This document shows positions 1 through 58,330 of a stretch of 64,000 nt of DNA, in pieces. Both the position numbers and the translations under genes were made by a program. The stretch comes from a virus. The stretch is taken from the IMG/VR virus record IMGVR_UViG_3300030419_004440, positions 1 to 64,000 of that record. One strand, 5' to 3'. Below the pieces are notes generated by a model. That model had not been told where the DNA came from. It worked only from the letters and a program-made list of their open reading frames with translations, and searched no databases. The stretch's first letter is position 1; each line of letters opens with the position of its first letter.

Positions 1-2
1 AC

Positions 3-2330
3 GTTACTTTTTCCGGCGTAAGTGGTATTGAGACTGAATACGTATTAGCCGGAACCCATGGCGGCCTTGCAACCAACAACTTACTTATAGTTAATGCTGT
101 AGAGCTTTCTGGAAATCTCAACCACTCGCTCTTCTCAGCACTTTCGGGGCAAAAGAATTGGGATACAGCTGTCGCATCAGGGAACCAGCTTGATTTTAAT
201 AAGTTTGGAGCCATTTCGGGGCAAAAGAATTGGGATACAGCTGTCGCATCAGGTAATTACCTGCTTGCTCAAATAGGAACTGCGGTATCTTATGGAAGCG
301 GAATAGTAAAACAGAAGGATACTATTGACTTTAGACATGATGGAAGTGGAACCCTAAAACACCTCATGTTCCATAGTGGTATTAGAATTGGAACGGGTGC
401 AGGTTTTGCAGAGGGAACACCAGAAAGAAATGCAAACCACTCAATTGAAGGTGCGATAATGATCGGAACAAAGGCCGGTTATGAGTCGCACTCTAATTAT
501 ATTTGTTCCGGACTGGCTATAGGAAACAAGGCAAGTTATCAATCATACTACCAGCAAGACGGTGTATTTATAGGAAGGTCTGCTGGCCAAGCGGCTTCTG
601 GACACCCTGCTTCTGGCCAACGTGACATGATAGCTATTGGCCGAAATGCTGCAAGGAAATCTGAAGATGGTGATTGGTCCACATACATCGGCTTAAATGC
701 GGGTCTAAATTCACATCTTAACAATTCAGTTATTTCTATCGGTCAAGGTGCCGGTATGGGAGTTGCCCAAGCAGAAGACGCAATACTAATCGGAACTAAT
801 GCGGGTCATTATACGTCTGGCATTAACCAGACTCTTGCGATAGGTCGAGTTGCTGGCTCTGGATCTCCCAATAAGAGACAGGGTATTTTTATCGGATACC
901 GAGCTGGAATAGATGTTATAGACAGCGGACTAAACCCAATTATGATAGGTACCGAGGCGGGTGCTAGTTCCTCCGGCTTACATAGCAATCACATTCTTAT
1001 TGGTAATTACGCCGGGGTTAGAGTCAGTGGAAGTCATGGCGGCCATTCAATAGGAATAGGTAATGCCGTACTTCGAGATAGTAACCTCAATGAAAGAGTG
1101 GTAGCCCTAGGGGGTTCTGCTGGGATACAATCTAGTGGAAACAAAAACGCTTTGATGATAGGAACAAACGCCGGTATCGAAATGTCCGGCGGTAGCTATG
1201 TTAACGCAATTGGCTTTGGTGCTGGTTATCAGGCCATCAAATCTGACGAGTTGACTGGCTTAAACCTTATTGGATGGTATGCTGGACAGAGGCTGGGATC
1301 TGGTGTTAGTTTGCCGGGCGACGAAGCGGGACTTTTGACTGGTGGAGGAGTGACTTATTCCGACTTCATCGGATATAAAGCTGGATACGCCGCTTGGGAT
1401 ATGGATTACGCACAGGTCTGGGGGGCCGCAGCGGGAATGCAGTCGAGGGAGCTTGGGGATGTTATAATTATTGGTAAACAAGCCGGTAGCCGCTTAACTA
1501 CTTCGGATAATTCAATAATTATGGGTGATCATGCTGGTTATGGATATACCACAACTTTTAAAACTGGCTCAACCGGCTTCGGACCAACCGCTGGTGTTGA
1601 TCACTCCATTATAATCGGTGAGCTTGCAGGTGCTAATTCCAGCGGTTTATATCATAGTACCGTCATTGGTTACGGTTCTTGGAGGGGTGACAACCCGTAT
1701 GTGTTCGATCAAGCTACGCTTAATGGAACAGACTATTCTTCTCAAAGAGTGGACTACTCCATACTTATAGGTGATGGTGTTGGTTCTCCGACCAACAGTG
1801 TTAGAGCACCCGGAAGCTATAACTGTATTATAGAACCACGTATGACTTTAACAAATGCCCAGTCATGGTGTTCCGATTGGCAAGATAACATTGTAAGTAT
1901 AGCAGCATTGATGCACGGTTACAGCGATCATGTAAGCATGAGCAAACAAAGATATCTTCAGGTCGGGGACTTCCCCACCAGTCTTTCAGCTTTACAAGAA
2001 GCAACCTTGTCGATTAAACCTGATCAGGACTCTCACGTAAACTTAAAGCTGAGAAGATCTGCTGCTGGAATGGCGGTGCCAATGTTAAAAGCCGAAATGC
2101 CCGCCAATCTGTCTAACAACGAAGCAACCATTGTTAACGAGCAGGGGATTAACCAAATCTTTATCTGCGATGAAAGGACTAGTGCTGGCGAATATCGAAT
2201 TGCCGGAAAAACAACAACCGTTCAGAAAAATCCCGGAACTATGATATTTTACGATGATGGATCAACCAGACGCCTTCTCATATGCAACGCGGCTGGGAAT
2301 TGGTACAAGATTAACATGAGTGCCGATTAA
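3..2330 (+). CDS. Tail fibre/adhesin-like protein with tandem (I/V)GxxAG repeats (YadA-head-like beta-roll); 5' end lies outside the window
   Basis: The frame is open from base 3 (VTFSGVSGIETE...) into the listed Met at 366. There are more than 25 repeats of about 14 aa, e.g. AIMIGTKAG, VFIGRSAG, IAIGRNAA, YIGLNAG, ILIGTNAG. It lies upstream of the head-tail genes. Confidence 0.65.
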   Translation, partial: VTFSGVSGIETEYVLAGTHGGLATNNLLIVNAVELSGNLNHSLFSALSGQKNWDTAVASGNQLDFNKFGAISGQKNWDTAVASGNYLLAQIGTAVSYGSGIVKQKDTIDFRHDGSGTLKHLMFHSGIRIGTGAGFAEGTPERNANHSIEGAIMIGTKAGYESHSNYICSGLAIGNKASYQSYYQQDGVFIGRSAGQAASGHPASGQRDMIAIGRNAARKSEDGDWSTYIGLNAGLNSHLNNSVISIGQGAGMGVAQAEDAILIGTNAGHYTSGINQTLAIGRVAGSGSPNKRQGIFIGYRAGIDVIDSGLNPIMIGTEAGASSSGLHSNHILIGNYAGVRVSGSHGGHSIGIGNAVLRDSNLNERVVALGGSAGIQSSGNKNALMIGTNAGIEMSGGSYVNAIGFGAGYQAIKSDELTGLNLIGWYAGQRLGSGVSLPGDEAGLLTGGGVTYSDFIGYKAGYAAWDMDYAQVWGAAAGMQSRELGDVIIIGKQAGSRLTTSDNSIIMGDHAGYGYTTTFKTGSTGFGPTAGVDHSIIIGELAGANSSGLYHSTVIGYGSWRGDNPYVFDQATLNGTDYSSQRVDYSILIGDGVGSPTNSVRAPGSYNCIIEPRMTLTNAQSWCSDWQDNIVSIAALMHGYSDHVSMSKQRYLQVGDFPTSLSALQEATLSIKPDQDSHVNLKLRRSAAGMAVPMLKAEMPANLSNNEATIVNEQGINQIFICDERTSAGEYRIAGKTTTVQKNPGTMIFYDDGSTRRLLICNAAGNWYKINMSAD
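142..253 (+). repeat. Exact 40-bp direct repeat (142-181 and 214-253), period 72 bp, in frame within the fibre gene
   Basis: TTTCGGGGCAAAAGAATTGGGATACAGCTGTCGCATCAGG occurs twice and encodes SGQKNWDTAVASG twice. Confidence 0.95.
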
Positions 2331-2370
2331 CGGAAACCTAACCAAGTAATTTTTATAATGGAGACAGAAA

Positions 2371-2571
2371 ATGCCTGACGAGATAGTAAAAGCAGCAAGA
2401 GATGGTGAACCCATTAAAAATGGCGGAATCATCACTTTAGTGTTTGAGACGGGGACAGCGGCTAGTGGCTTACCTGAAGTTAATAGTTTCGTTCCTTCTG
2501 GCACTATGCGAACTCGATACGACGGTCGATTCGACGACGTGAGATATTACACTGGTGATAGTGCTAGCTAA
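2371..2571 (+). CDS. Small hypothetical virion-module protein (66 aa)
   Basis: GGAG RBS upstream; fills the gap between co-oriented genes. Confidence 0.6.
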   Translation: MPDEIVKAARDGEPIKNGGIITLVFETGTAASGLPEVNSFVPSGTMRTRYDGRFDDVRYYTGDSAS

Positions 2572-2585
2572 CCATAGGTATAACC

Positions 2586-3068
2586 ATGCCAATTAATATT
2601 CCAGATAGCGTTTTTGATAAGTATTACGACGTAGTAGACTCCACGTTTAATATTTTTGGGGTTACTTGTCAGTTGGTATATATAGAAAAAGTAGAAGTGA
2701 TATCTAACACCTACGATAACATACCTGAGAACAAGTCTATAAATGCACACAGGAGACCCCAACCTCAGTACAAGAGGCAAAACAAAACGATTAAAGAAGT
2801 TGAGAAAACAGAGGATATAAAGATTAAAGTTTATTGGGACAGCAAAAGCTGGACAAAGGTTGGTGGAGATATGGTGATCCCAGAGGGGTCAGTCCAAACA
2901 ATTTTCTACGCCACTGATTTAGACAAGATAATGAGAGCTAAAGAGCTTATTATACACAAAGATATTTCCTCTTTAAGAGAGATGAGATTTATCAAGCATG
3001 GTGAACCATTTCCAATGGGATTGAAACAAAACAGATACTTTGGATGTTTTTGGGAAAGAGCTTCGTAA
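2586..3068 (+). CDS. Putative head-closure/head-tail joining protein
   Basis: 160-aa beta-rich protein positioned between the fibre gene and the tail tube gene; TAATG coupling to the next gene. Function is inferred from synteny. Confidence 0.5.
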   Translation: MPINIPDSVFDKYYDVVDSTFNIFGVTCQLVYIEKVEVISNTYDNIPENKSINAHRRPQPQYKRQNKTIKEVEKTEDIKIKVYWDSKSWTKVGGDMVIPEGSVQTIFYATDLDKIMRAKELIIHKDISSLREMRFIKHGEPFPMGLKQNRYFGCFWERAS

Positions 3069-3709
3069 TGCTTAATAACGCCAACATATCTATAAAATTA
3101 TTAGACACAGACGTAGCCATAAGAAAAAAAATATACGAGAGTATAGCGGAACAACTTAACAAAAGCATTTCTAAAAATAAAGCAAAAGCAACAACGCTTT
3201 TAAAGTCGAAAGTCAGCAAATGGGTCTCCAGACAGCCCGAAATTAGAAGTTTACGCTCAAATGGTGGGATAGGATCTTTAGCTGCACACTTTGGTTTAAC
3301 ACCAACACAGGCTGACATAGCCACTGAATCAATAATATCTGCGGTAGTAGATAGTTTGCAGGTGAAAATTAAGCCCATTAACAGAAGACTAAAAGGAACC
3401 ATAGAATTCAATTTTCAAGAAACTAATTTTTTAAATTTATTATCAATTAATAGCGGCCATGTTGTAACAGAAAAAGGGGCTGATTTACATTGGCTTGACT
3501 GGCTGATAACAAGAGGGGACACAATAATAATTACCGGGTATTCATATATTGGTGGTCCGACTGGTAGGTCTGGTGGAGGTGAAATGAATATCGGGGGAGC
3601 ATGGAGGGTTCCACCTGAGTTTTCAGGAACACCCACGAACAACTTTATAACAAGGGCGTTTGAAGGTACCCAGAAAGAAATAGAAGAAGTTCTTAAAAGG
3701 CTGATATAA
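3068..3709 (+). CDS. Putative neck/tail-completion protein (HK97 gp10-like position)
   Basis: Start reassigned to ATG 3068 (TAATG overlap). Basic protein with LHWLDWL and a C-terminal NNFITRAFE motif; synteny. Confidence 0.45.
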   Translation: MLNNANISIKLLDTDVAIRKKIYESIAEQLNKSISKNKAKATTLLKSKVSKWVSRQPEIRSLRSNGGIGSLAAHFGLTPTQADIATESIISAVVDSLQVKIKPINRRLKGTIEFNFQETNFLNLLSINSGHVVTEKGADLHWLDWLITRGDTIIITGYSYIGGPTGRSGGGEMNIGGAWRVPPEFSGTPTNNFITRAFEGTQKEIEEVLKRLI

Positions 3710-4695
3710 TGGTTAACGCTACATTTTCACCACTCAAAGGAATAAGCGGTATATTTGATTCCACTTTGAATAATGATATTCAAGATGGCATTATAGAGTA
3801 CTTTGACTGGGCACTTTTAGAAAAGGGCAATTATTTCAATGTAGCGGCTAACGAGACTTCGCCTAACGGGGAGGATATGAGCCGATTAAGGATGTCCTCT
3901 AATGATTCGTACACAGCAGGACAAGTATGGGAAGGGTTTAGAAAAAATTGGGTTTGGCAGAGCGGAATATCAGTTAACGGCTTTGACTCACCTATTGTGG
4001 GAGACGACAATAATAACCCCGGAATTTCTGGAATTTATATTGATGGATCGTTTTACTCCACAGATACAGTAGGTACATATGCTTACCATGTAGATTATTT
4101 TAACGGAAGGGTGGTATTCGACAACCCTATACCAACAGGATCTGTTGTAAAAGCAGAGCATAGTTACAAGTATATTAACGTGTTATATGCAAACAACATG
4201 CCTTGGTACAAAGAGCTTCAATCTAGAACCTTAGAACCAACGGCTAGTTTTTTGGATTCTGATGACGGCAACTGGAATATACCGCCTGAAAGCAGGGCAC
4301 AATTACCATTGGTGGCCATAGAAATTGTCCCCAATAGATCCTTTAAGGGGTATCAATTAGGGGGCGGTCAGTGGGTCTTTACTGACGTTTTATTCCACTG
4401 TATAGCGGAGGATGAAGTTACGAGAAACAAGCTAGTTGATGTTATTTCGTTGCAAAACGATAAAACAATACACTTATTTAATAGTAATAAGATCAATGTA
4501 AATCAAGATTTTCCCTTAGATTACAGGGGTACACCAGTCGCGGGTGCATTAAGATACCCAGATTTGATAGACCAATATAACGGAGGCAAGCTTAAACTCA
4601 CGAAAACCACGGTTCAGGAAATGATTATGCATAATACCACGGTTTTTGGGGGAGTTGTTAGGATGACCACTGAAGGAGTTAAAACGAATATTTAG
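3709..4695 (+). CDS. Putative tail terminator/completion protein
   Basis: Lies immediately upstream of the tube gene. C-terminal QLPLVAIE...GYQLGGG...DVLFHCIAEDEVTRNKLVDVI resembles tail-terminator folds. Confidence 0.45.
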   Translation: MVNATFSPLKGISGIFDSTLNNDIQDGIIEYFDWALLEKGNYFNVAANETSPNGEDMSRLRMSSNDSYTAGQVWEGFRKNWVWQSGISVNGFDSPIVGDDNNNPGISGIYIDGSFYSTDTVGTYAYHVDYFNGRVVFDNPIPTGSVVKAEHSYKYINVLYANNMPWYKELQSRTLEPTASFLDSDDGNWNIPPESRAQLPLVAIEIVPNRSFKGYQLGGGQWVFTDVLFHCIAEDEVTRNKLVDVISLQNDKTIHLFNSNKINVNQDFPLDYRGTPVAGALRYPDLIDQYNGGKLKLTKTTVQEMIMHNTTVFGGVVRMTTEGVKTNI

Positions 4696-4698
4696 TGA

Positions 4699-4717
4699 TT
4701 TTCGTGTATAAATCTAT
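4699..4717 (+). promoter_or_regulatory. Putative phage late promoter TTTTCGTGTATAA-WW-CTAT
   Basis: Intergenic, about 35 bp upstream of the tail tube start and followed by an AAGGAGAG RBS. It is 17/19 identical to 40222-40240. Confidence 0.65.
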
Positions 4718-4752
4718 AGAAAACCTCTTTACAAACTTAAAGGAGAGAAATA

Positions 4753-5937
4753 ATGCCTACAGCAAATGATAGAATTTTTTACGCCTGTCAAGGTGTATCC
4801 ATCCAGAAGGAGGGGTACCGTGACTCCAATGTCGCGACTGGCGAGATGATTCACGGCCTCCAGAGCGTTGGAGTAACAACTAACTTTAATCTTGAACAGG
4901 CATTTGAGCTGGGACAGATTGAAATTTATGAGAACATAGAAGGTACGCCCGATGTTGAAGTAACCTTAGAAAAGGTTCTCGACGGCTATCCGTTGATTTA
5001 TCACTTGGCTAGTGAAGGTATCAACAATGGAACGCCACCGATTTCTAGCGGCCTTGTAAACAGATCAAAACAACGATGCGATGTAAGACTTGGTATTTTC
5101 CCAGAAGAAAACAACTTCATTAAAGAAGGTGGTGGCTCGGCGGATATGGAAGTTTACATGTCCGGCATGTATATCAGCAGTATCTCTTATAGCCTCAATT
5201 CAGACGGAAGCTCTACTGAATCTGTCACCTTGGTTGGAAACAACAAGCAGTGGTATAAAAATAGAAGCGGAAAAATGCTAACCGGTTCCGTGGCGAATTT
5301 TGACGGAACTGATGCACCCCTTGGCATGGGTGATGCGACCAACCCCTCCGGTGGTGTTACTCAGAAAGAAGACGTAATCATTTCTGGATGCATTTTCCCT
5401 GCCAGCATTGAGGGTGTCACGGGTAGTGGCTATGGAAATGGTATTGGTAAAATTCATGCACAGAGTGTTAGCGTTAGCACTGACTTTTCTCGTGAAGACA
5501 TCTTTGAGCTTGGTAGAAAAACGCCTTACGCTCGCCCGGCTGCATATCCGATTGAAGTTAGCTGTGATATTGAAGTTGTAACAACTTCTGGCGATCTTGT
5601 AGAAGCCCGTGAAGACGGTGACGCAACACTCTTTGGCACTATCGACTCAGGGAATAACACTCAAAACGAATGTATTTTCTTCTACACCAGAAACGGTTTA
5701 GGCCTCGACCTTGGCGAGAAAAACAGACTCTCTAGTGTCAGCTATGGAGGGGGAGATGCCGGTGGAGGAAATGCCTCATGTACTTACAGTTACCAAAACT
5801 TTAACACTTTGGATGTTCAGAATCGTAGAAATGGCTACATTGGATTTAATGCACTCAAGGAAACCCTGCTTGGTACTGCAAAACGTAAGTACTCAAATGA
5901 TGGAAACGGTATGCCGTTCCCTGATGACATCGTATAA
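4753..5937 (+). CDS. Major tail tube protein
   Basis: Internal duplication typical of tube folds (LQSVGVTTNFNLEQAFELGQ / AQSVSVSTDFSREDIFELGRK...YPIEVSCDIEV). It has a strong RBS, its own promoter motif, and lies upstream of the chaperones and tape measure. Confidence 0.75.
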   Translation: MPTANDRIFYACQGVSIQKEGYRDSNVATGEMIHGLQSVGVTTNFNLEQAFELGQIEIYENIEGTPDVEVTLEKVLDGYPLIYHLASEGINNGTPPISSGLVNRSKQRCDVRLGIFPEENNFIKEGGGSADMEVYMSGMYISSISYSLNSDGSSTESVTLVGNNKQWYKNRSGKMLTGSVANFDGTDAPLGMGDATNPSGGVTQKEDVIISGCIFPASIEGVTGSGYGNGIGKIHAQSVSVSTDFSREDIFELGRKTPYARPAAYPIEVSCDIEVVTTSGDLVEAREDGDATLFGTIDSGNNTQNECIFFYTRNGLGLDLGEKNRLSSVSYGGGDAGGGNASCTYSYQNFNTLDVQNRRNGYIGFNALKETLLGTAKRKYSNDGNGMPFPDDIV

Positions 5938-5953
5938 GATGTAACTTAATGGT

Positions 5954-6038
5954 CCGATGGAGTGATTGTCCATTGGTGGATTTTAATCGTAGCTTTTGCG
6001 ATAGCTAAATATTAGGACAGGCAAGTGGAGCTACGATT
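5954..6038 (+). other. Two predicted RNA stem-loops in the tube-chaperone intergenic region
   Basis: CCGATGGA (5954-5961) pairs with TCCATTGG (5969-5976). AATCGTAGCT (5985-5994) is the perfect inverted repeat of AGCTACGATT (6029-6038), with an inner TTGC/GCAA pairing. Confidence 0.55.
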
Positions 6039-6089
6039 CAGGAAGGAAATTTATGCAAAATAAAACTACTCCCGCCATGAGGTTACGTT

Positions 6090-7136: not shown

Positions 7137-7138
7137 CA

Positions 7139-7507
7139 ATGGAGAATTTTGACAAACTCATTCGGAAAAAATCAGAATATAAAGAAGTTAGAACTGAGAA
7201 ATTTAGATATGACTCAAAAGAGAGGCTATCTAAAATACTGAAGAAAAAAGTAGAAACCACTATGATTGGTGCCATTTCCTCTATAGAGGATCACTTTTCT
7301 TTTCTTTGGCTAGCAGACGATTCTGAGATGACTACCGAGAAAAAATTTATGTATGAAACATTTCAGAAAGTGAGATCTGAGATTCTAGATAAAGGAAACA
7401 CACAGGCTAGGAATGTGGATGCAGAACTAAACCAGTATGAGATAAAATGGATGAGATATTCCATGGATATTCCAGTGAAGAACAATGGAGGAACGGAAGA
7501 TGAGTGA
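7139..7507 (+). CDS. Hypothetical tail-module protein (122 aa, helical)
   Basis: AGGAGG RBS; overlaps the next gene. Confidence 0.7.
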   Translation: MENFDKLIRKKSEYKEVRTEKFRYDSKERLSKILKKKVETTMIGAISSIEDHFSFLWLADDSEMTTEKKFMYETFQKVRSEILDKGNTQARNVDAELNQYEIKWMRYSMDIPVKNNGGTEDE

Positions 7508-8399: not shown

Positions 8400-8445
8400 A
8401 CAACGGAAAGATTTGGATAGTGTAGTCAAAATTTAGAGAGAAAAA

Positions 8446-15102: not shown

Positions 15103-15112
15103 GTAGGAAAAG

Positions 15113-29625: not shown

Positions 29626-29633
29626 GGATACTA

Positions 29634-30362: not shown

Positions 30363-30380
30363 GAAGGACAATAAGATAAC

Positions 30381-33300: not shown

Positions 33301-35663
33301 CTGAAATTGGATTCCGTGAATCAGAGCAGTGGGATTTAGACCTAACAGAATTTAAAAGAATTGCTCAGAAAGCGGAAAGAAGTGGGCCAACTACAACCTT
33401 ACTCGATGGAGCGATTTGGCCGACTAAATCTAAGGTACACTGGCACTACCTAGACGTTCAAGCTATGGGGGAGGCGGCGGCAGAACTCGCCTCGACACAT
33501 AAGGATATGGTTTGGTATGGCTCTGGTTATACCGAAGGTGCTTTAAAATGTAACTTTAATCCTTTCGACTCCAAGTGGGAATTTAACTATAAACCAGAAC
33601 CGCAGGGTGGGTTTTATAACTACGCACTGAGTAAACCGCTTGGTGAACTTGACTTTAAGGCGGAATATTTCAACAACCAGCCTCCGCCAAGTGTAGGCAA
33701 CGAACTGGCTAGAAAACAGCTTCTTGCACCTCAACTGATGGACAAACTTGTTGCAGATTCAAACAGAATACAGTGCTACGCAAGGTATGATCATAGCCAA
33801 CACTTAGATTTTGCGAAGGTAAGTTCTGACAAGATTGAACAACAGGGCATAGAGGTCAAGGAAGGAGGAGAAACGATATTTATCCCTGATGTAATGGAGA
33901 CCTTGCCAAATCTTGACCCGGATAAGAGGGAGGCCCTAAATAGCATTCAGGCAAGGCTAGAAGACGATAAAGATCTTGAAAGACAAAAAAAATCAGTTGC
34001 TTTTGTTAGGTGTGAACTTGATAAGGAGTTCTATATGGCACCCAAACATGTGGGTGGCGATGCTGTAGTTTGGGCTGAAGATTTTACTGTTAATTTAGCA
34101 CCAACTCCTTATGAAATTGTTTATGTTCCTAGTGGAGATAAAGGTTGCCGAATTCCAAAAGAAGTTAAAAGAAGACCTATACCATCATTTGGTGTTAAAG
34201 ATGGCGGACTGTTAAATGCAGACGGTAACTCAGTTGACACTGAGGAGGTAGAAGGTCTTGACGGAACTACTGAAACTGTTACCACTCCCGTAACCGCAGA
34301 AACTGCCCACAGGGTTCGTTGGGACGGTTTTGATCGTGAGTGGAACGAAACCTACAAGGCTTGGATAATAAAAACAAAGGCCGAAGATCTCGACCCAGAA
34401 CACGTCTACGCATTGATAACTGTGCCCGGCAGGATCACCCCAACGGTCGATAAAAGATATGTAGATGGTCCACTTAGGGCTGTAAACGGGGTGTCTATAG
34501 CTAACTCGCTAACCGAAGATGTCGTAAAAATAGACGAGTTTTCAAAACCGGGAATCAAACATCCAGATGAAGACCCGGAAGTTCAATGTGACAACCTTCC
34601 TAGCGGAGTTGACTTTACTTTTGATGATCTATCAAGAGCAGTTCAGGCACAGAAAGATGCGGCAAAGGGTATTAGCCTTTCTAGCAATGGTGATACCAGC
34701 ATATTGGCGTTTACATCCCCTTCCCCCATATACCCTGATATGGTTGCTATACCACTAATGTCTATGGAGCGGTGCTATGGCCCTTGGCTGTCCAGTGCCA
34801 ATACACATGACAGACTCGACAATGATGGCCGTGTGAAAGAGTTGAAATTTTCTGAGATCGGAGGTAAGGTTGAGTTTGTTAAAGAAGAAGAATTAGCACC
34901 TTGGAATTATGCGGGTTATAGGTTGATGGATGACGCCGCAAGACTGAAGACTAAATTTTCAAACAGCTTGCTGCTATTTTCCGAGAGAGGTTCGTTTTCT
35001 TACCCGTCTGCACCAATAGATGTTTCGCTGGCCAAAGCGTTAGAGGACAGAGGACCGTTGGTTACATCTATAAGCGTAAACGTTTCTAATAATTCAATAA
35101 AGACCTCTGTTAAATTAGACTTGTATACTTCTCAGTTCGGAAAACTACAGAAGCAAAAGGAGAAAGCTATAGCACAAATAAGTAGAGAGCGGCAGAAGTT
35201 GTTAGACCAAAGAAACAGCCTAGAGAGACGTGGTCTAGGAAAAGGTGCCGCGAACATGAACATGATGCAAGATCTTCTTAGAAAAGGGGGTCAAGGTCTG
35301 ATAGATGCTGCCAAACAGTCTAACGAGATCTTTACCCTGCTAGAAAAGGGCGAAGAAAAGAAAGCGTCCATGATTACCATCAGTGCTGTAAATAGACAAG
35401 ACCAGTATGACAATCCAAGCGAAGGGCTTTCTTTCAAGATAAAATCTGAAGATTCACACGGAGCCTTCCAGTCTGAAGGACAAGTCAGTGAATTAGCTTC
35501 TAACATAGCCGACCCGTTAGCGTATCAAAATGCCATGGATCAAACTGCTGGTGCCCATGTAACAGACATATATACTGGAACATCAGATTCCCCTTATAAC
35601 CCTTATTTTGCCAGCAGACGGATGAACAACCAAGTACAGGTTAATACTAGGACATTAGGATAG
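30381..35663 (+). CDS. Large tail tip/central spike-type protein (1760 aa) with an internal coiled coil
   Basis: N-terminal FLGASIRSFNVNAGFGDSSSTMGIELVND and FTFGGILQSY...YSVKLTDPREIL, plus C-terminal GPLVTSISVNVS...KTSVKL, fit hub/Tal-like proteins. A heptad-rich segment lies at about 32750-33150. Confidence 0.5.
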   Translation: MVNLHNYSIVPPSAVFQDNWPLTGVLPQGYRGALSVAGWTLGNEGYPQQSFLGASIRSFNVNAGFGDSSSTMGIELVNDEFNQSDSTELGNGDDVYHNGVHDKFNPPVVGAPVFFKFGKNFATVEQAFRRDFDDIYDEETLNVPDNPFPMVQVPYPIETHPAGYYLVDSNPDAKTSRWIDKSVLLDPETDWRGFAHFTFGGILQSYTENRSTGGNPLYSVKLTDPREILSNAELILNNYQGTTFNNKNLYNIYGFLEHDLSDNLLEQFNEKKLAKKVITRKISDFFDEWSLEGDDMWHFPPETIIESEGVETTLNGNTFLLTESGVIWTSAFPITGQGFSRRSDNGIPWYRVEKAMNALFSYDNDLPEEYKKAGFGGVIDFRGYNYVVDWGGIPTDDIPESYYLDFDNINMLDLAQELCDVLSRELYVSLLPVIDHPSCENLYKKNKKVLSEAKAFPEGSQERHAFLGSGLVAGIIRIDTIDRSKQPRYGSVKRYLDSLELNDIFVENRDVGFEVSNVVTDKFVVGAQEVDMYYFNNLRDRDNYFERSIESQDDGTLEASRSRQRMQQLNHDKWTLDTNLKQQILPFYGFIGDKAVTIPRGFGSYQQILLDARHLDAHGVGSYYIATEMELRAATVSYEAWQNFLLTYSEIYIQELSNNQAFFSSLGLNMTEEVAGINDQLEEGSPIKEQLSILTEAGRRFGVSVPRCVWNSDKSPEKGSEFVRIDEDTGEDVEKETGGVFVGQMGDDGYPASPCSPPFGYPLYYKRAEKIGIPQAGLVKITGALQTVMTNIQNLEDMTRSDKQRLRFSKHMAEKGIRRLEALIVEKKKQQQQLGAGAPNRKVHRLLVDIKILEDRIKEIRKNLVKEREELEVLQEDRKVQLKALKENVKNSAALIKNISRYQRDSLKNAKKVYEFVKKVADDNLGKKFLVKIPRACNVNWSPDILLGGATNNQSRPWDVIRGPFGFRPHPVNAEIGFRESEQWDLDLTEFKRIAQKAERSGPTTTLLDGAIWPTKSKVHWHYLDVQAMGEAAAELASTHKDMVWYGSGYTEGALKCNFNPFDSKWEFNYKPEPQGGFYNYALSKPLGELDFKAEYFNNQPPPSVGNELARKQLLAPQLMDKLVADSNRIQCYARYDHSQHLDFAKVSSDKIEQQGIEVKEGGETIFIPDVMETLPNLDPDKREALNSIQARLEDDKDLERQKKSVAFVRCELDKEFYMAPKHVGGDAVVWAEDFTVNLAPTPYEIVYVPSGDKGCRIPKEVKRRPIPSFGVKDGGLLNADGNSVDTEEVEGLDGTTETVTTPVTAETAHRVRWDGFDREWNETYKAWIIKTKAEDLDPEHVYALITVPGRITPTVDKRYVDGPLRAVNGVSIANSLTEDVVKIDEFSKPGIKHPDEDPEVQCDNLPSGVDFTFDDLSRAVQAQKDAAKGISLSSNGDTSILAFTSPSPIYPDMVAIPLMSMERCYGPWLSSANTHDRLDNDGRVKELKFSEIGGKVEFVKEEELAPWNYAGYRLMDDAARLKTKFSNSLLLFSERGSFSYPSAPIDVSLAKALEDRGPLVTSISVNVSNNSIKTSVKLDLYTSQFGKLQKQKEKAIAQISRERQKLLDQRNSLERRGLGKGAANMNMMQDLLRKGGQGLIDAAKQSNEIFTLLEKGEEKKASMITISAVNRQDQYDNPSEGLSFKIKSEDSHGAFQSEGQVSELASNIADPLAYQNAMDQTAGAHVTDIYTGTSDSPYNPYFASRRMNNQVQVNTRTLG

Positions 35664-35672
35664 GAGAATAAT

Positions 35673-38600
35673 GTGACTACAAATACAACGAATAATATGA
35701 TGGATTCTATCTTCGATAGCGATCCAACAGATTTTCAGGAAACCCCATATCACCTTATAACCACGGACCATCCGTGGATGTTTCAGCTTGGGCTATCAAC
35801 CTTTACAACGGGGACATTGTATAGGTGGTGGCACAAACGTGACGGAAATGGTAAATATGAGAATAGAAAGTATTTTATTGAGAATGAAGAAGTCGCAGCT
35901 CAGCATGAAGTTCCTTGCGTTGTTCTTGGCGGCGATGACACCGAGGGGTATTCCTGCGAGGCCTTTGATAGCTTTAAGGATAAGACGGGTGAATTTAAGG
36001 GTCAATTCTCTTTTCAGGGATGGAGAAAAGAGAACGATGCTGGTGCGGGACAATATCATCGTATGTATATTGACGGTGGCCACACTGACAAGTGGGCCTT
36101 CTCTCAGCCCGGAAAAAACGAAGCTGGAGACCCAAGAAGTTACAGCTACGAAGATTTAAAAGTTACGGATTTTGATAATGCTTATATAAGAGAAGACGGC
36201 GAACTCATGGACGGTTCGGATGACGAACATAAAGCAAGGTGGTGGCAATCGGACGGTCGAGGTGCTCAGGATCTTTTGATTTTTTTTGGTATGCAGCCTA
36301 TAACCAACGTCATTGCCATGAATGACTATGTAAACAATAAAATATTAAACACGATAGATAGAGGTGCAAAAAAAGAAGACGGAACCCCTGCGGAAGGTGC
36401 TTGGACTAAGACAGACTTCGCACGATCAGAGTTTACACTAGACATTCAATCTAGTAAAGAGGGGTATGTGGAGTGGAGTGGTTATGTTCCATTTCAGATT
36501 AGCCTAGGATCTGGTGACGCTGGAGATGTATTCAAATGTACAAAATCTGACTGGGTAACTTTTAGACTTCATCTATTTCCTGAAACAGCACCAAAATCTA
36601 CCCGTCGTGGCATAGCAATGTCCAAACCTTCCTTTGCTGCACCACCAGTAGACTCACTGGGAAGATCGTACCAAAAAAGGGAGGATGGTAGATTCTCACC
36701 TTTTCCTGAAGGTTCTCAGGCCGCAGAAGTTGTTGGCGACCTAGACATGAACTTCAATGAGTATACCGGAAAATGGGAGGCCGGTAGCCCGCAAATGGTT
36801 GGTATTGTTACACAGAAGATTAGTGCCGCACAAACCATTCCTAGCGACAGGCTAAGAAGGGTGACTCCAGAAGATATGCTTAGGAACCCAAACGACCCAA
36901 ATAGTCACATTATATGGGGTTCGGGTGAAGCAATGTCTATACACATGCAAAACAGTAACCCTATGCAATGGACTCCAAATTATCTACAACCATCAAATCT
37001 TGATGAAAATGGCAAGTTTGCAGAGATATGCCCAGAAGATAGCGAAGAGAGAGCGACGGTAAGAGTCTTCAACGCTAGTTCAAAGCCACTAGAGGTTGAC
37101 CAGATGTGTTTACTAAACAGAATAGATGGTTTATGGTTCGCTATAGATTTTCCCTCTGGCGTTGTCGGTGAGGACACAGTGTCTGTTGGTTTTGATGGAA
37201 AATGGGAATTCCAGTATTACGCTACCAATGTAGTGCACTTCTTTAAAAATAAAGATTTTACTCGTATTCAACCCGCCGCTATAGAGAAAGGGTTTCACAA
37301 GGAGTATTATGCGTCAAAATCGTGGGCTGATCGGAATCATAACGTATATCAAGGAGCTACAAGAATCTCAGATTTTTTGTATCACGGGGGTTTCCATCAG
37401 TTTTCATCTTTTGACTTTATGGATCACTTGATCGCTGGAACTAGAGATACAAACGCATATTCTCTCACCAGCCCTTTACTGGCACCAAATGGGGACACAA
37501 TAGAAGGCGATACGGACGGTTTACACACTGGCCCGTTTTTTGGCTGCTGTTTTCCAGACGGTTATAGCACTGAGGATACGGCTAAATATTTGTCGGACAG
37601 AACCTTTATCGCAAAACCGACCATTAATGTAAGCGGTAAAGTTGATGGTAAGTGGACGCCGACGCACACCCACTTCTCCTCAACGGTAACCGGCGGAGAG
37701 ACCGAATACAAATATTTTCTGGAAGACGGTATAGCAAAGGATGGCAGGCCGTTTGCTGAGTATGCAAACCCGGCTGAAAAAACCGGCCCCCGAAACGATT
37801 GGAATAAGTGCTATAAGGATCAGCAAAATATTGAACAGCACCTGTTTGTGACGGATGGGACGAATCTTCTAGACGCTTCACTTAGCCATTTGCCTGCTGA
37901 CATAGCCCTGAATGCATCCCCTTCCGGATATGTAAATGGTCAGCCGCTTACTAATATACATAAACTGAACGATGCCTATCACCGAAGCAACGACTCAAGT
38001 TTCAGATCCATGGACCTGCTATGTAAGCAATTCTTTATGCAAGGAAAAAATTGGCTATATAAAAAATATGACGATGATGATGATAGTGTTGGTATAAAGG
38101 ATTTTACTGAAAGTAACGCTTTTGATTTTAAGCCAAATAGACCAAACAGGATCATGTTTAGACCACTTAAGGCCGAAGCGTATTCACAGTTCATGAGGAG
38201 AAATTCGGATGGGAATTATGTTGATCCAAACGCAGAACTTGGAACCAGAAGCTATTTTAATCAGAGCCTAGGTAGAGACATGAAGTCTCAAGGGAGGCCA
38301 TCTTCGGATTCATCTCTATCTCGGGAGCTTGATAATGATATAGCACAAATGCGAGACACGAGCGATGCAGCACAAGGAGGGTTTTCAGTTCCGAATATGG
38401 CGGGAAACATATACTCTATTTATAATTCTTTTTGGGGGCTACAGCATCAAGTAGATATACCTACCAGCAAATCAAGCGATTATTTACTTTCCCCCAACGC
38501 TAACCTAAAATCCATTCAGGAAATAGATTTTTCTACACTATTCCCTCGCCTTCCGGTTACTTGTTGGGGTTTTGCGGGTGGTAACCGTTGGTGTCACTCA

Positions 38601-40205
38601 TCAACCGACATTGATAAGGATAAATACTATGCGAGTCTTGACCCCCCTTGGAGGGCTTACAAGATGGGTGACGACGACGATCAACACCGATCTGGTGGTG
38701 TAGGAATCATTGCTGCGGCGGCCACATGCACATTACAGGACAGGGTAAAGTTTGAAAGTACATGTAGACTTGGCTGCTGGTCTTATAGTCATAACAATTC
38801 GCCGCCATATAAAGCTTCATGGGGCAAAGGTGACAATCACGATAGTTTTTCAACTACAAACCTGTTTGTAAGAGTCTATGCAGCTTGGCCAAAAGAGCAG
38901 ACAATCTATGATGGTAGATATTTTGCCGTTCACCATTTTAATGCTGGAATATTAAGCGAAACGTTTGAACATGATGGCGATGAGTGGTACAGGCTGGAGT
39001 CGGCGACCGAAGACATTACGCAAAAAGACCCTACCGATCCGGCGGGAGGCTTTAAAAGTTACAAATACAAAATCCAAAAGCCGGGCTATGACATAGATTT
39101 ACTCGGCCCCTCCACAAAGGTGCTTACACCTTCTGAGGATGAAGTAAACACTCCTCGTGTTGCAGCTAGCTACTCTAGATTTTACGGGCTAACCACTGTT
39201 GAGGTGGCTAATGGGGCATCTACAGTTTACGAGTCCTTACCTAGATCGAAGTGGCAGGTTAACAACAGAGTTGTCGCCTCAAGAAGAGGAAAGCTGTTGC
39301 CCTTTGAATACAGTTATTGGTCTGTTCAAATTCCTAAGTTTAAAATTCAGCTTCCGTGGTTTGGCGAGGGCATTGAAGACGGTGAAGAGAAAATTTATAA
39401 GAATGGCGGATACGCAATTGTGTTAACAGGAGGGTCAGATAACGACGGTTTCTTGAACGCTGAAGCTCGCCCATTTTACGATTTAACAAAAGCAGAAGCC
39501 GACAGAGAACAGCAGTTTGATCCAATAAAAAACCCGGATTCTGAAGATGTAGTTATGGTTGTTAGAAACCCCGGAGATGGCGGCGATGATGGTAGCTATA
39601 AAAAAGGAGACACATTTGTCACCCCTGTAAATATAGGAGGGGGAACACAGGCCATAATCAAAGTTGCTGATGTTGTAGATGTTGGTGAATACAAAGGAAA
39701 AATCTCAACACTTGAGGTTAGCTTTGAGGGTACCGATTTTGAGAATACTGGTTTCACAGACGTGGATAAAGACAAGCCCATCACAAAGTCATCAATAGGG
39801 ATGGATCTAAGCCCCGGAGGGTCACAACCAGCGGGCGGTAGAGGTTTTAATGCTTTTCTAGTAAGAGGCGAAAATCGCCCCACAGTTAAAACTGACCTGA
39901 AACCTGAAATAGCCACCTCTGCGGATTTGAATAGATTATCTATTAAATCTGAGAAAATATCGGAGCAGGGCGGCGGTATAGGCGGAGGGGGGCACTTTGG
40001 CCTTCTTAGTGATAATTTTGAGGCTGATATAGAAATTACCAACAAGTCCCCAGACAATAAATATGACCTATTTTTCTTTTTCCATAACGATATTACGCAT
40101 ACTTTCGCATACGGTAACACAAATGTTGGAAATCACTGGCAAAGAACTGGGGATATGGGTAAGGGGCAAGAACAGTATATAGACCTAACAATAACTACAA
40201 ATTAA
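35673..40205 (+). CDS. Large tail-associated protein (1510 aa), possible receptor-binding/baseplate component
   Basis: GTG start with AGGAG RBS; last gene of the tail-tip run. C-terminal VVRNPG...YKKGD...AIIKV...ISTLEV resembles beta repeats of baseplate/fibre proteins. Confidence 0.45.
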   Translation: MTTNTTNNMMDSIFDSDPTDFQETPYHLITTDHPWMFQLGLSTFTTGTLYRWWHKRDGNGKYENRKYFIENEEVAAQHEVPCVVLGGDDTEGYSCEAFDSFKDKTGEFKGQFSFQGWRKENDAGAGQYHRMYIDGGHTDKWAFSQPGKNEAGDPRSYSYEDLKVTDFDNAYIREDGELMDGSDDEHKARWWQSDGRGAQDLLIFFGMQPITNVIAMNDYVNNKILNTIDRGAKKEDGTPAEGAWTKTDFARSEFTLDIQSSKEGYVEWSGYVPFQISLGSGDAGDVFKCTKSDWVTFRLHLFPETAPKSTRRGIAMSKPSFAAPPVDSLGRSYQKREDGRFSPFPEGSQAAEVVGDLDMNFNEYTGKWEAGSPQMVGIVTQKISAAQTIPSDRLRRVTPEDMLRNPNDPNSHIIWGSGEAMSIHMQNSNPMQWTPNYLQPSNLDENGKFAEICPEDSEERATVRVFNASSKPLEVDQMCLLNRIDGLWFAIDFPSGVVGEDTVSVGFDGKWEFQYYATNVVHFFKNKDFTRIQPAAIEKGFHKEYYASKSWADRNHNVYQGATRISDFLYHGGFHQFSSFDFMDHLIAGTRDTNAYSLTSPLLAPNGDTIEGDTDGLHTGPFFGCCFPDGYSTEDTAKYLSDRTFIAKPTINVSGKVDGKWTPTHTHFSSTVTGGETEYKYFLEDGIAKDGRPFAEYANPAEKTGPRNDWNKCYKDQQNIEQHLFVTDGTNLLDASLSHLPADIALNASPSGYVNGQPLTNIHKLNDAYHRSNDSSFRSMDLLCKQFFMQGKNWLYKKYDDDDDSVGIKDFTESNAFDFKPNRPNRIMFRPLKAEAYSQFMRRNSDGNYVDPNAELGTRSYFNQSLGRDMKSQGRPSSDSSLSRELDNDIAQMRDTSDAAQGGFSVPNMAGNIYSIYNSFWGLQHQVDIPTSKSSDYLLSPNANLKSIQEIDFSTLFPRLPVTCWGFAGGNRWCHSSTDIDKDKYYASLDPPWRAYKMGDDDDQHRSGGVGIIAAAATCTLQDRVKFESTCRLGCWSYSHNNSPPYKASWGKGDNHDSFSTTNLFVRVYAAWPKEQTIYDGRYFAVHHFNAGILSETFEHDGDEWYRLESATEDITQKDPTDPAGGFKSYKYKIQKPGYDIDLLGPSTKVLTPSEDEVNTPRVAASYSRFYGLTTVEVANGASTVYESLPRSKWQVNNRVVASRRGKLLPFEYSYWSVQIPKFKIQLPWFGEGIEDGEEKIYKNGGYAIVLTGGSDNDGFLNAEARPFYDLTKAEADREQQFDPIKNPDSEDVVMVVRNPGDGGDDGSYKKGDTFVTPVNIGGGTQAIIKVADVVDVGEYKGKISTLEVSFEGTDFENTGFTDVDKDKPITKSSIGMDLSPGGSQPAGGRGFNAFLVRGENRPTVKTDLKPEIATSADLNRLSIKSEKISEQGGGIGGGGHFGLLSDNFEADIEITNKSPDNKYDLFFFFHNDITHTFAYGNTNVGNHWQRTGDMGKGQEQYIDLTITTN

Positions 40206-40221
40206 TTTCAAATTTAACTAC

Positions 40222-40240
40222 TTTTCGTGTATAATACTAT
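40222..40240 (+). promoter_or_regulatory. Putative phage late promoter, second copy
   Basis: TTTTCGTGTATAATACTAT, intergenic, followed by a TAAGGAGG RBS; matches 4699-4717. Confidence 0.65.
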
Positions 40241-40263
40241 GACTCTATAAGGAGGGTTTTATA

Positions 40264-41010
40264 ATGGCAGAAATTAAATTCTATGCTAACGAGACTAGCA
40301 TAGCGGGTGGGACTGATTCCACCCTAATTGATCATACGTCTGGCTCTGGCATGGGGTTTTTTGGCGGAGGCTTTGGCATTTCCGTACCAGTTGGCCAGTA
40401 TCAGGATACTACTTTCGTTACCAACTCTGACGGTACGTCTAGTGGCATTCGTGTTAAAAATACAAAATATGTAGCTAGCACCACTATTCCAAACAGTGGT
40501 GTTTCTGCAAATGGCGGGGCTACCATTGGCCTATCCGGTATGCCAAATTACTACGCACCTCTAAATATTAGATTTGAGCATAGTGAAAAGGTAAGAGTAC
40601 AAAATTGCAAACTTAGAATATTTGATCGTAATGATATTTCCAAGCAGGCGAGCGGAGTAACAACTAAGGTGTATGAATGTCGTCATCCACAACCAAATGA
40701 GGCATTTAATGGCCAAAGTGGAACTCTAGCAATGCGAGGCATTAGTAATTATGGATGGACGGAATTTGATCCAACAGAAACTATGGCCGATCTAGCTTTT
40801 ACGGCTTCGCCCGGCATGAGTGGATTGAACACGTCGGCTGCTGACACCCTTCCTTCTGGTTTGGCTGACGGAAGTATAAACTGGCTTACTAATGAAGGTA
40901 CTGCACACGAAAGCACGAGGCATGATTGGTTTGTGGCTATGAGTGCTTCACCAGATAGTATAGGAAGTAAAACTCAGTATGGTCTCTACTTCACACTAGA
41001 GTACCTGTAA
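40264..41010 (+). CDS. Putative abundant virion structural/decoration protein (248 aa, Ser-Gly rich)
   Basis: Has its own late-promoter motif, a perfect RBS and a downstream terminator; beta-rich S/T/G composition. Confidence 0.5.
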   Translation: MAEIKFYANETSIAGGTDSTLIDHTSGSGMGFFGGGFGISVPVGQYQDTTFVTNSDGTSSGIRVKNTKYVASTTIPNSGVSANGGATIGLSGMPNYYAPLNIRFEHSEKVRVQNCKLRIFDRNDISKQASGVTTKVYECRHPQPNEAFNGQSGTLAMRGISNYGWTEFDPTETMADLAFTASPGMSGLNTSAADTLPSGLADGSINWLTNEGTAHESTRHDWFVAMSASPDSIGSKTQYGLYFTLEYL

Positions 41011-44976: not shown

Positions 44977-44977
44977 G

Positions 44978-46341: not shown

Positions 46342-46343
46342 TC

Positions 46344-54288: not shown

Positions 54289-54296
54289 TATTATTC

Positions 54297-58329: not shown

Positions 58330-58330
58330 T

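What the first reader, a model, noticed from the sequence alone, without database searches (positions are those of the whole stretch)
3..41010. Ser-Gly dipeptides are strongly over-represented in putative outer virion proteins: candidate O-glycosylation sequon
Seen (manual counts): the 248-aa protein at 40264 has 9 SG versus 3 GS, with about a third of its Ser followed by Gly. The last ~325 aa of the 4221-aa protein have 16 SG versus 5 GS. The fibre, tail tube, 66-aa, 242-aa (SG/TG) and 95-aa (PSGSPEPSG) proteins also show recurrent ASG/PSG/TSG/SSG. The Gly-rich tape measure, which sits in the tail lumen, shows about 20 SG in 2218 aa, close to compositional expectation. Known: Ser-Gly is the attachment motif for glycosaminoglycan chains in animal proteoglycans, and exostosin/GT47 enzymes extend such chains. 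Inference: SG is the acceptor site written into exposed virion proteins for the adjacent GT cluster, forming a proteoglycan-like phage coat.
Basis: partly seen in the sequence, partly recalled or inferred. Interest (0 to 1): 0.8.

Follow-up and report, generated by a model that had tools for sequence, protein, structure and literature searches.

The report
Conserved Ser-Gly turns in phage tail proteins
Several tail and fibre proteins of this uncultured marine phage put serine before glycine about 2.6 times more often than chance and conserve those serines strongly; this is a real selected signal at tight turns, but nothing here shows that sugars are attached there.

Summary
The counts are correct and far beyond chance. 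The 4221-aa protein has 90 SG against 36 GS, with 35 expected. SG is the top outlier of all 400 dipeptides, both Ser codon families encode it, and NG, DG and TG are not enriched.

All 120 homologues examined share the excess (SG observed/expected (O/E) 2.60, GS 1.04). SG is their most conserved dipeptide, and its Ser is as conserved as Trp or Cys.

The fibre, terminator-like and tail-tube families share the excess. The tape measure, chaperones and three large distal tail proteins (615, 1760, 1510 aa) do not. The 248-aa asymmetry is lineage-specific.

SG sits at strand entries, hairpin turns and fixed fibre-repeat positions. Phages without virion glycosyltransferases give SG O/E 1.05 (T4), 1.18 (T5) and 1.61 (lambda).

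The glycan operon is real, fully soluble and present in 25 of 27 relatives, so no relative lacking it was available for contrast. The exostosin hit is below threshold, and the acidic flanks of proteoglycan sites are absent.

Best reading (0.5): a Ser-specific structural turn motif, coupled to Asn-Gly avoidance in virion proteins. Rival (0.35): the acceptor site for phage O-glycosylation.

This scan noted the same pattern earlier on other phage DNA.

The parts
3..2330 (+). C-terminal 775 aa of a fibre protein; the contig starts inside the gene. It is built from ~17-19-aa repeats of the form hhIGxxAGxxxxSGxxx.
   Evidence: SG 22, GS 14, 11.6 expected. The repeat is visible in the sequence. Family SG O/E 2.56, GS 0.91. 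Homologues reach 87 against 22 and 61 against 4, with SG spacings of 7 and 14 residues. No Pfam, PHROG or PDB match.
2371..2571 (+). 66-aa virion-module protein with one invariant SG (VpSGT).
   Evidence: 2 SG and 0 GS here. Family O/E 3.21 against 1.42. The SG at residue 43 is kept in 20 of 20 homologues.
3044..3709 (+). 221-aa head-tail module protein with a moderate family-level SG excess.
   Evidence: Family SG O/E 1.62, GS 0.77. Two SG columns are kept in about 70% of 46 sequences.
3709..4695 (+). 328-aa protein, possibly the tail terminator (weak lead only).
   Evidence: The window copy has 3 SG against 2 GS. The family has 240 against 83 with 100.8 expected (O/E 2.38). SG at residue 107 is kept in 47 of 47 sequences and SG at residue 85 in 42 of 47. 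Language-model look-alikes to terminator families score only 0.78-0.85.
4753..5937 (+). 394-aa tail tube protein.
   Evidence: 8 SG against 4 GS, 4.7 expected. Family SG O/E 1.57, GS 0.85. SG at residue 137 is kept in 49 of 52 sequences. Look-alike clusters carry Phage_tube_2 or Phi812 tail tube at a score of 0.96.
8446..15102 (+). Tape measure protein (2218 aa). It is helix-rich and shows no clear SG excess.
   Evidence: PHROG tape measure families. SG 20, GS 9, 14.2 expected. Family O/E 1.07. Helix-former composition.
15113..27778 (+). Giant 4221-aa distal tail protein with FG-GAP blades and SGxxNL fibre-like stretches. This is the main carrier of the signal.
   Evidence: SG 90, GS 36, 35 expected. 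FG-GAP_2 scores 70 bits against a cut-off of 23. Across 120 homologues SG O/E is 2.60 and GS 1.04. 40 of 90 SG sites are kept in at least 80% of 40 homologues. No internal repeats by BLAST.
27778..29625 (+). 615-aa tail protein with beta/turn-rich composition and no SG excess. It serves as an internal negative.
   Evidence: SG 2, GS 4, 4.2 expected. Family O/E 1.03.
30381..40205 (+). Two large tail proteins (1760 and 1510 aa) without SG excess.
   Evidence: SG 6 against GS 9 (8.9 expected) and SG 7 against GS 8 (10.7 expected). Families 1.02 and 1.23. No Pfam or PHROG match.
40264..41010 (+).
   Evidence: SG 9, GS 3, 3.2 expected. Only 3 SG are conserved across homologues; the rest occur only in this phage and its closest relative. 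Across 112 relatives SG is 2.00 and GS 1.68. The model has pLDDT 84.7, and four SG immediately precede strands. Best PDB Z-score is 4.9.
44978..62589 (-). Glycan-building operon. It holds three Glycos_transf_1 (GT4) proteins, a fourth GT4-like one (Glyco_trans_1_2), a GT2, a DXD sugar-binding GT, a weak exostosin-like hit, two SDR epimerase/dehydratases, a nucleotidyltransferase-like protein, a PIG-L deacetylase and an FkbM methyltransferase.
   Evidence: Pfam and NCBIfam. None of the 27 operon proteins has a membrane-spanning segment. GT4 genes occur in 25 of 27 related records, and in 9 of 9 that are at least 90% complete.

Best explanation
Ser-Gly is a selected, serine-specific tight turn. 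It leads into beta-strands, closes hairpins, or occupies one fixed position of the fibre repeats. It occurs in about six virion protein families: the giant distal tail protein, the fibre, the terminator-like protein, the tail tube, and the 221-aa and 66-aa proteins.

The number of polar-residue-plus-Gly turns is ordinary. What is unusual is that Ser fills about 70% of the pre-Gly positions that Asn, Asp and Ser share in other phages. At the same time Asn-Gly, the most deamidation-prone bond, is avoided in this phage's virion proteins.

Shown: the excess, its amino-acid-level origin, its conservation and its position at turns. Inferred: the reason is fold stability and chemical durability of long-lived virions, with the Ser hydroxyl capping the turn. 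On this reading the motif is not in itself a modification site.
For: - In the 248-aa model (pLDDT 84.7), SG 28, 60, 78 and 130 each sit 1-3 residues before a strand.
- In the moderately confident part of the giant-protein model, SG falls in FG-GAP hairpins and at strand entries.
- In the fibre family, SG is a periodic repeat position with spacings of 7, 14 or 17-19 residues.
- When the Gly is kept but the Ser is lost, the replacements are the usual turn formers (G 54, N 35, T 35, D 33). Ala is rare (11).
- The sum of N, D and S before Gly is 1.48 in the giant family. From the pooled lambda counts the same sum is about 1.5.
- The excess lies almost wholly in conserved positions. At variable positions SG 26 is close to GS 18, DG 25 and GG 26.
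- NG O/E is 0.58 in virion proteins against 1.32 in non-virion proteins of the same window.
- Lambda, which has no virion glycosylation genes, already shows SG 1.61 against GS 0.94.
Against: - A plain turn preference should also raise NG, DG and TG. Here these are 0.69, 0.78 and 0.85.
- T4 (1.05) and T5 (1.18) show no excess.
- The beta/turn-rich proteins p615, p1510 and p242 of the same virion have SG O/E 0.5-1.1. They also avoid NG but use DG and GG instead.
- The Ser of SG is conserved like Trp or Cys (0.63 against 0.37 for other Ser). When the Gly is kept, the Ser is kept in 87% of cases. That is stronger than expected for one of several acceptable turn residues.
- Lys and Arg are almost excluded at position -1 (0.11 and 0.31).
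- This reading leaves the conserved, all-soluble glycan operon without an acceptor.
Confidence: 0.5

Rival explanations
1. The Ser of the [P/A/V/T]-S-G-[V/I/C/Y] turn is the acceptor of a cytoplasmic O-glycosylation carried out by the phage's soluble glycosyltransferase operon. The conserved GT4 pair next to ssb may act first, and the other enzymes would extend and methylate the glycan. The tube, terminator, fibre and giant tail protein would carry a glycan coat. The tape measure, the chaperones and three distal tail proteins would not.
For: - The excess is Ser-specific and acts at the amino-acid level. Both Ser codon families occur in the SG pairs, and 12 of 34 conserved SG columns use both.
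- There is an extended context with basic residues excluded at -1 and Val or Cys after the Gly.
- The pattern is specific to a set of proteins within one virion.
- The operon has about 10 GTs plus sugar-nucleotide and tailoring enzymes, no membrane protein, and no Pfam or NCBIfam hit to a flippase, polymerase or priming transferase.
- GT4 genes occur in 25 of 27 relatives.
- A thymidylate-synthase/hydroxymethylase homologue occurs in only 1 of 4 complete relatives. This argues against DNA as the glycan acceptor.
- There is a precedent for Ser glycosylation in loops of a beta-helix by a cytoplasmic enzyme: TibC acting on TibA (PMC4358343).
Against: - There is no chemical evidence.
- No GT matches a known protein O-glycosyltransferase family above its cut-off.
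- The sites are more conserved than the protein average and sit at structural turns.
- Thr almost never replaces Ser (1.5%).
- The total number of such turns is not raised.
- Ag43, a relative of TibA and AIDA-I in the same autotransporter group, has no SG excess (13 against 15).
- The distant clade G014, with a glycan cluster half the size, still has an SG-rich fibre (19 against 4).
- The operon lies in the replication module and could instead remodel host glycans using the host's own membrane machinery.
Confidence: 0.35
2. The conserved Ser is used for some other covalent chemistry, such as phosphorylation, an ester or ether cross-link, or modification by the unclassified radical SAM enzyme that closes the virion gene block.
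For: The Ser is strongly and specifically conserved. A radical SAM gene lies at 41083-41853, directly after the 248-aa gene, and matches no specific family.
Against: No known chemistry uses a Ser-Gly motif of this kind. The radical SAM hits are generic and far below their cut-offs. No homologue of that gene was found in the related loci fetched.
Confidence: 0.07
3. The excess is an artefact of composition, codon or oligonucleotide bias, or recent internal duplication.
For: Gly and Ser are both abundant in these proteins, and the fibre is repetitive.
Against: Expectations were computed per protein from its own composition and checked with shuffles. 21 different codon pairs encode SG, and the hexamers are not enriched out of frame. 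GS, with identical composition, sits at 1.0. The giant protein has no internal repeats by BLAST. The excess holds in 120 homologues at 40-72% identity.
Confidence: 0.02

Closest known systems
Autotransporter hyper-glycosylation by TibC/AAH heptosyltransferases (TibA, AIDA-I; PMC4358343)
   Same: A soluble cytoplasmic enzyme adds sugars to many serines. The serines lie in short loops between beta-strands of a repetitive beta-structure, and modification happens before the protein leaves the cytoplasm.
   Different: No heptosyltransferase or GT9-type family was reported for any operon protein. Ag43, a relative of TibA and AIDA-I, has no SG excess (SG 13, GS 15, 11.9 expected; NG 22 against 11.2). 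The acceptor motif for those enzymes is not defined as Ser-Gly in the text read.
Virion glycosylation of mycobacteriophages by phage-encoded glycosyltransferases (from my own knowledge of Freeman et al. 2023; mentioned in PMC11256854)
   Same: Phage-encoded glycosyltransferases are thought to decorate capsid and tail tube proteins in the cytoplasm.
   Different: As I recall, those phages have one to a few GTs and glycosylate flexible C-terminal regions. Here there are about 10 GTs, and the candidate sites are conserved internal turns spread through the proteins (tube SG at residues 99, 137, 199, 211, 225 and 299).
Animal proteoglycan glycosaminoglycan attachment (xylosyltransferase at Ser-Gly, exostosins extending the chain)
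   Same: A Ser followed by Gly.
   Different: Acidic flanks are depleted here. No family naming a xylosyl- or protein-glycosyl-transferase was hit (Pfam's GT14 was not looked for specifically). The exostosin hit is below threshold (17.6 against 33.4 bits). The biology is cytoplasmic, not Golgi.
Generic beta-turn and beta-arc sequence preferences (type II turns, Ser/Asn ladders of beta-solenoids)
   Same: SG sits at strand entries, hairpins and repeat turns. Lambda tail proteins show a milder SG>GS asymmetry (1.61 against 0.94).
   Different: Generic turns use Asn, Asp, Ser and Thr alike (lambda NG 1.36, DG 1.51). Here only Ser is raised, and it is conserved like a core residue.

Membership tests
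Proteoglycan-type GAG attachment system | Ser-Gly acceptor dipeptide | tested here: met
   SG O/E is 2.57 in the giant protein and 2.6 across 120 homologues.
Proteoglycan-type GAG attachment system | Acidic residues flanking the Ser-Gly | tested here: not met
   At position -3, E is 1 against 5.1 expected and D is 1 against 6.8. E is also depleted at -5, +4 and directly after the Gly (0.46).
Proteoglycan-type GAG attachment system | Initiating xylosyltransferase (GT14) and a bona fide exostosin (GT47/GT64) | tested here: inconclusive
   Exostosin_GT47 scores only 17.6 bits against a cut-off of 33.4 (E 0.0025). No family naming a xylosyltransferase was reported for any operon protein at E<=0.01, but Pfam's GT14 family was not looked for specifically. 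The genome is only about 53% complete.
BAHT (TibC/AAH) autotransporter heptosylation | BAHT or GT9-like heptosyltransferase | tested here: inconclusive
   No heptosyltransferase family was reported by Pfam or NCBIfam for any operon protein. Several operon proteins have no family hit at all.
BAHT (TibC/AAH) autotransporter heptosylation | Acceptor serines in short loops between beta-strands | tested here: met
   From the DSSP strings of the 248-aa model and of part of the giant-protein model, SG lies 1-3 residues before strands or inside hairpins.
Mycobacteriophage-type virion glycosylation | Phage-encoded GTs in a genome whose capsid or tail tube is glycosylated | not testable with these tools
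   GT genes are present. Glycosylation of the virion needs mass spectrometry or glycan staining.
Serine-rich-repeat adhesin glycosylation (GtfA/GtfB, SdgA/SdgB; GT4) | Match to the GtfA/GtfB or SdgA/SdgB models | tested here: not met
   There are only generic GT4 C-terminal matches. SdgB scores 35 bits against a cut-off of 800. GtfA and GtfB are not listed.
FG-GAP beta-propeller (C-terminal part of the giant protein) | FG-GAP_2 repeats above Pfam's cut-off | tested here: met
   PF14312 scores 70.3 bits against a cut-off of 23. It is also precomputed on all 120 listed homologues.

The most novel reading that the evidence does not exclude
[P/A]-Ser-Gly-[V/I] turns are the sequon of a phage-encoded cytoplasmic O-glycosylation system. 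The system would coat the tail tube, terminator, fibres and the giant distal tail protein of a large group of uncultured 160-175-kb marine phages with a complex methylated glycan. It would be made by an all-soluble operon of about 20 genes, and the sites would be conserved because the sugar is needed for folding or stability.
Probability: 0.35. Interest if true: 0.8.

Novelty: new variant of a known kind. Interest (0 to 1): 0.55.

Why it matters
If the serines carry sugar, this would be the first defined sequon for virion glycosylation in tailed phages. It would also give a sequence-only way to predict which virion proteins of uncultured phages are glycan-coated. That bears on virion survival, stickiness and host recognition in the sea.

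If they do not, the result is still useful. It shows a lineage-specific "turn code" in which Ser replaces Asn and Asp before Gly, together with Asn-Gly avoidance in virion but not in intracellular proteins. That would be a signature of selection for chemical durability of particles. It is also a warning that dipeptide excess next to glycosyltransferase genes is not evidence of glycosylation.

Tried and rejected
Hypotheses tested and rejected:
- DNA-level bias is rejected: 21 codon pairs encode SG, and there is no out-of-frame excess.
- A general X-Gly turn preference is rejected for the giant protein family.
- Internal duplication is rejected.

Structure attempts:
- AlphaFold on giant-protein residues 1381-2300 with 19 sequences gave mean pLDDT 44.7, and residues 1-496 of that segment were unusable. 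A 41-sequence alignment was too large to submit.
- Solvent exposure could not be computed, because only DSSP strings are returned.
- Fold searches of the 248-aa model found nothing clear (PDB Foldseek E>=0.04, VIA-align Z<=4.9, BFVD E>=0.02).

Searches that found little or nothing:
- No cultured-phage relative of the tube, the giant protein or the first 25 kb of DNA. The fibre gave one weak hit, to Synechococcus phage S-B05.
- No PHROG, Pfam or PDB sequence match for most virion proteins.

The contrast with relatives that lack the GT genes could not be made:
- All sufficiently complete relatives have the GT genes.
- The TET/JBP search rang nowhere, including the controls, so it says nothing.


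Full report
**What the window is.** The window covers the first 64 kb of an 88.9-kb viral contig, estimated about 53% complete. Complete relatives are 160-175 kb.

The plus strand carries, in order:
- the C-terminal 775 aa of a fibre;
- small head-tail proteins;
- a 328-aa terminator-like protein;
- a 394-aa tail tube (tube families at 0.96);
- two helix-rich chaperone-like proteins;
- a 2218-aa tape measure;
- a 4221-aa protein with FG-GAP repeats;
- proteins of 615, 242, 1760, 1510 and 248 aa.

The minus strand carries a glycan operon between a zinc-ribbon gene and ssb/dnaE.

**Checking the observation.** Every count in the finding was reproduced. The whole 4221-aa protein has 90 SG against 36 GS with 35.0 expected. 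That is z 9.3 and the largest deviation among all 400 dipeptides.

The excess is not a general residue-before-Gly effect. NG is 13 against 24.5 expected, PG 9 against 20.9, DG 29 against 30 and TG 23 against 26.

It is not a DNA effect either. SG is written with 21 codon pairs from both Ser codon families and all four Gly codons, and the hexamers are not enriched in other frames.

The 28 minus-strand proteins pooled give SG 24 and GS 24 with 27.1 expected. Inside the finding's own coordinates, however, the 615-, 1760- and 1510-aa proteins have SG observed/expected (O/E) of only 0.47-0.67.

**The family view.** The giant protein has more than 290 full-length homologues in metagenomes. In the 120 listed (40-72% identity), SG O/E averages 2.60 (range 1.97-3.37) and GS 1.04. 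Every other residue before Gly is at or below 1.2.

Homologues in 70 related IMG/VR loci gave these pooled values:

| Family | SG O/E | GS O/E |
|---|---|---|
| Fibre | 2.56 | 0.91 |
| 66-aa | 3.21 | 1.42 |
| 328-aa | 2.38 | 0.82 |
| 221-aa | 1.62 | 0.77 |
| Tail tube | 1.57 | 0.85 |

These families gave no clear SG excess: 160-aa 0.89, chaperones 0.48-1.05, tape measure 1.07, 615-aa 1.03, 1760-aa 1.02, 1510-aa 1.23.

The 248-aa family has both SG (2.0-2.2) and GS (1.7-1.9) raised. Only three of the window protein's nine SG are conserved.

**Conservation.** Against 40 homologues, SG is the most conserved dipeptide type of the giant protein (0.58 against 0.26 overall). 40 of its 90 sites are kept in at least 80% of sequences.
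- The Ser of SG is as conserved as Trp or Cys (0.63), against 0.37 for other Ser.
- When the Gly is kept, the Ser is kept in 87% of cases and Thr appears in 1.5%.
- 12 of 34 conserved SG columns use both Ser codon families.
- At poorly conserved positions SG (26) is hardly above GS (18), DG (25) or GG (26). The excess therefore consists of fixed sites, not of a maintained density.
- Pooled over the family, the context is [P 2.1, A 1.8, V 1.7, T 1.4]-S-G-[C 3.1, V 2.5]. Lys (0.11) and Arg (0.31) are almost excluded before the Ser.

**Structural setting.**
- The fibre is a solenoid-like array in which SG is one fixed repeat position. Homologues show SG spacings of 7, 14 or 17 residues, with up to 61 SG against 4 GS.
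- The giant protein has no internal repeats by BLAST. The family consensus nonetheless shows SGxxNL-type fibre stretches.
- The 248-aa model is good (pLDDT 84.7). SG 28, 60, 78 and 130 each sit just before a strand, and the others lie in loops.
- The giant-protein segment model is poor (44.7). In its better part, SG falls in FG-GAP hairpins and at strand entries.
- Exposure could not be computed.

**Outside baselines.** Pooled virion proteins of three phages that, to my knowledge, do not glycosylate their virion proteins (T4's glucosyltransferases act on its DNA) were compared:

| Phage | SG O/E | GS O/E | NG O/E |
|---|---|---|---|
| T4 | 1.05 | 1.10 | 0.99 |
| T5 | 1.18 | 1.00 | 1.25 |
| Lambda | 1.61 | 0.94 | 1.36 |

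A mild SG>GS asymmetry can therefore arise without any sugar system. The window's pooled value of 1.74 is not exceptional. The 2.4-2.6 of the giant, fibre and terminator families is about twice the baseline.

The sum of Asn, Asp and Ser before Gly is 1.48 in the giant family. From lambda's pooled counts the same sum is about 1.5. The turns are thus normal in number but filled 70% by Ser.

Asn-Gly is depleted in this phage's virion proteins (0.58) but not in its other proteins (1.32). Ag43, a relative of the glycosylated autotransporters TibA and AIDA-I, has no SG excess and a two-fold NG excess.

**The sugar genes.** The operon is real. It holds three Glycos_transf_1 (GT4) proteins, a fourth GT4-like one (Glyco_trans_1_2), a GT2, a DXD sugar-binding GT, two SDR epimerase/dehydratases, a nucleotidyltransferase-like protein, a PIG-L deacetylase and an FkbM methyltransferase.
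- The exostosin hit is below threshold. No family that names a protein-glycosylating enzyme, a xylosyltransferase or a heptosyltransferase was hit.
- None of the 27 operon proteins has a membrane-spanning segment. This points to a soluble acceptor.
- A thymidylate-synthase/hydroxymethylase homologue is present in only 1 of 4 complete relatives. This weakens DNA as the acceptor.
- GT4 genes are in 25 of 27 related records and in all 9 that are at least 90% complete. No relative lacking them was available for contrast.
- One distant clade has a glycan cluster half the size and a giant homologue with SG O/E of only 1.40. Its fibre-position protein still has 19 SG against 4 GS, so this is inconclusive.

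**Weighing the readings.** The structural reading explains the position of SG at turns, the fixed sites, the ordinary number of turns, the turn-former substitutions and the lambda baseline. It needs Asn-Gly avoidance as an extra assumption. It does not explain why the beta/turn-rich p615, p1510 and p242 escape, why Ser is held so tightly, or what the soluble glycan operon acts on.

The sequon reading explains those points. It rests, however, on no chemistry, no recognisable protein glycosyltransferase and no co-variation.

I put the structural reading at about 0.5, the sequon at about 0.35, other serine chemistry at 0.07 and artefact at 0.02. The proteoglycan analogy specifically is not supported.

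**Earlier notes.** This scan recorded the same kind of pattern in other phage genomes. I treated those notes as leads. Their [A/P]-S-G and S-G-aliphatic contexts are reproduced here. Their claim that the excess tracks particular transferases could not be tested in this group.

Noticed in passing
window 3-41010 (+) against 43104-64000 (-): Asn-Gly is depleted in virion proteins (44 observed, 75.6 expected, O/E 0.58; GN 0.91) but not in the non-virion proteins (30 against 22.7, O/E 1.32). T4, T5 and lambda virion proteins give 0.99, 1.25 and 1.36. This may be avoidance of the deamidation-prone bond in long-lived particles.
   Followed up: partly
window 43104-62878 (-): None of the 27 proteins of the glycan operon has a membrane-spanning segment. 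No flippase, polymerase, priming transferase or permease family was hit. The glycan is therefore probably built on a soluble acceptor, or depends on host membrane machinery.
   Followed up: partly
window 41083-41853 (+): An unclassified radical SAM protein (256 aa) closes the virion gene block. It gives only generic matches (viperin-like, MoaA, peptide maturases), all far below their cut-offs. No homologue was found in the related loci fetched.
   Followed up: partly
window 40264-41010 (+): The 248-aa protein belongs to a family with 255 cluster representatives. It folds confidently as a beta-sandwich (pLDDT 84.7) but has no clear match in the PDB or in predicted viral structures.
   Followed up: yes
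window 15113-27778 (+): The giant protein family (more than 290 members, about 3,700-5,400 aa) has no PHROG or PDB sequence match. Its only above-threshold Pfam match is FG-GAP_2 (DUF4350 scores 28.3 bits, below its 30.4 cut-off). It is absent from 50,697 cultured-phage records. Some members add Calx-beta, RCC1 or LamG domains.
   Followed up: partly
L058:1-3159 and L016:856-6711: Fibre homologues are built of near-perfect tandem units such as YASGQAIxNxS and VASGNALxDAKLYSDVSGVxISGW, with 61 SG against 4 GS and 87 against 22.
   Followed up: partly
L078 (G014:C1:44000-59500) and L010:10800-20000: A distant clade has a 4545-aa giant homologue with SG O/E of only 1.40. Its glycan cluster is about 9 kb (RgpF-like, DUF5672 and two GT4), against 17.6 kb here.
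   Followed up: partly
window 1-3 and G000:C1:88860-88938: The contig begins inside the fibre gene. Joining the contig end to its start keeps the frame open for only 27 more codons. The record is a fragment, not a permuted whole genome.
   Followed up: partly
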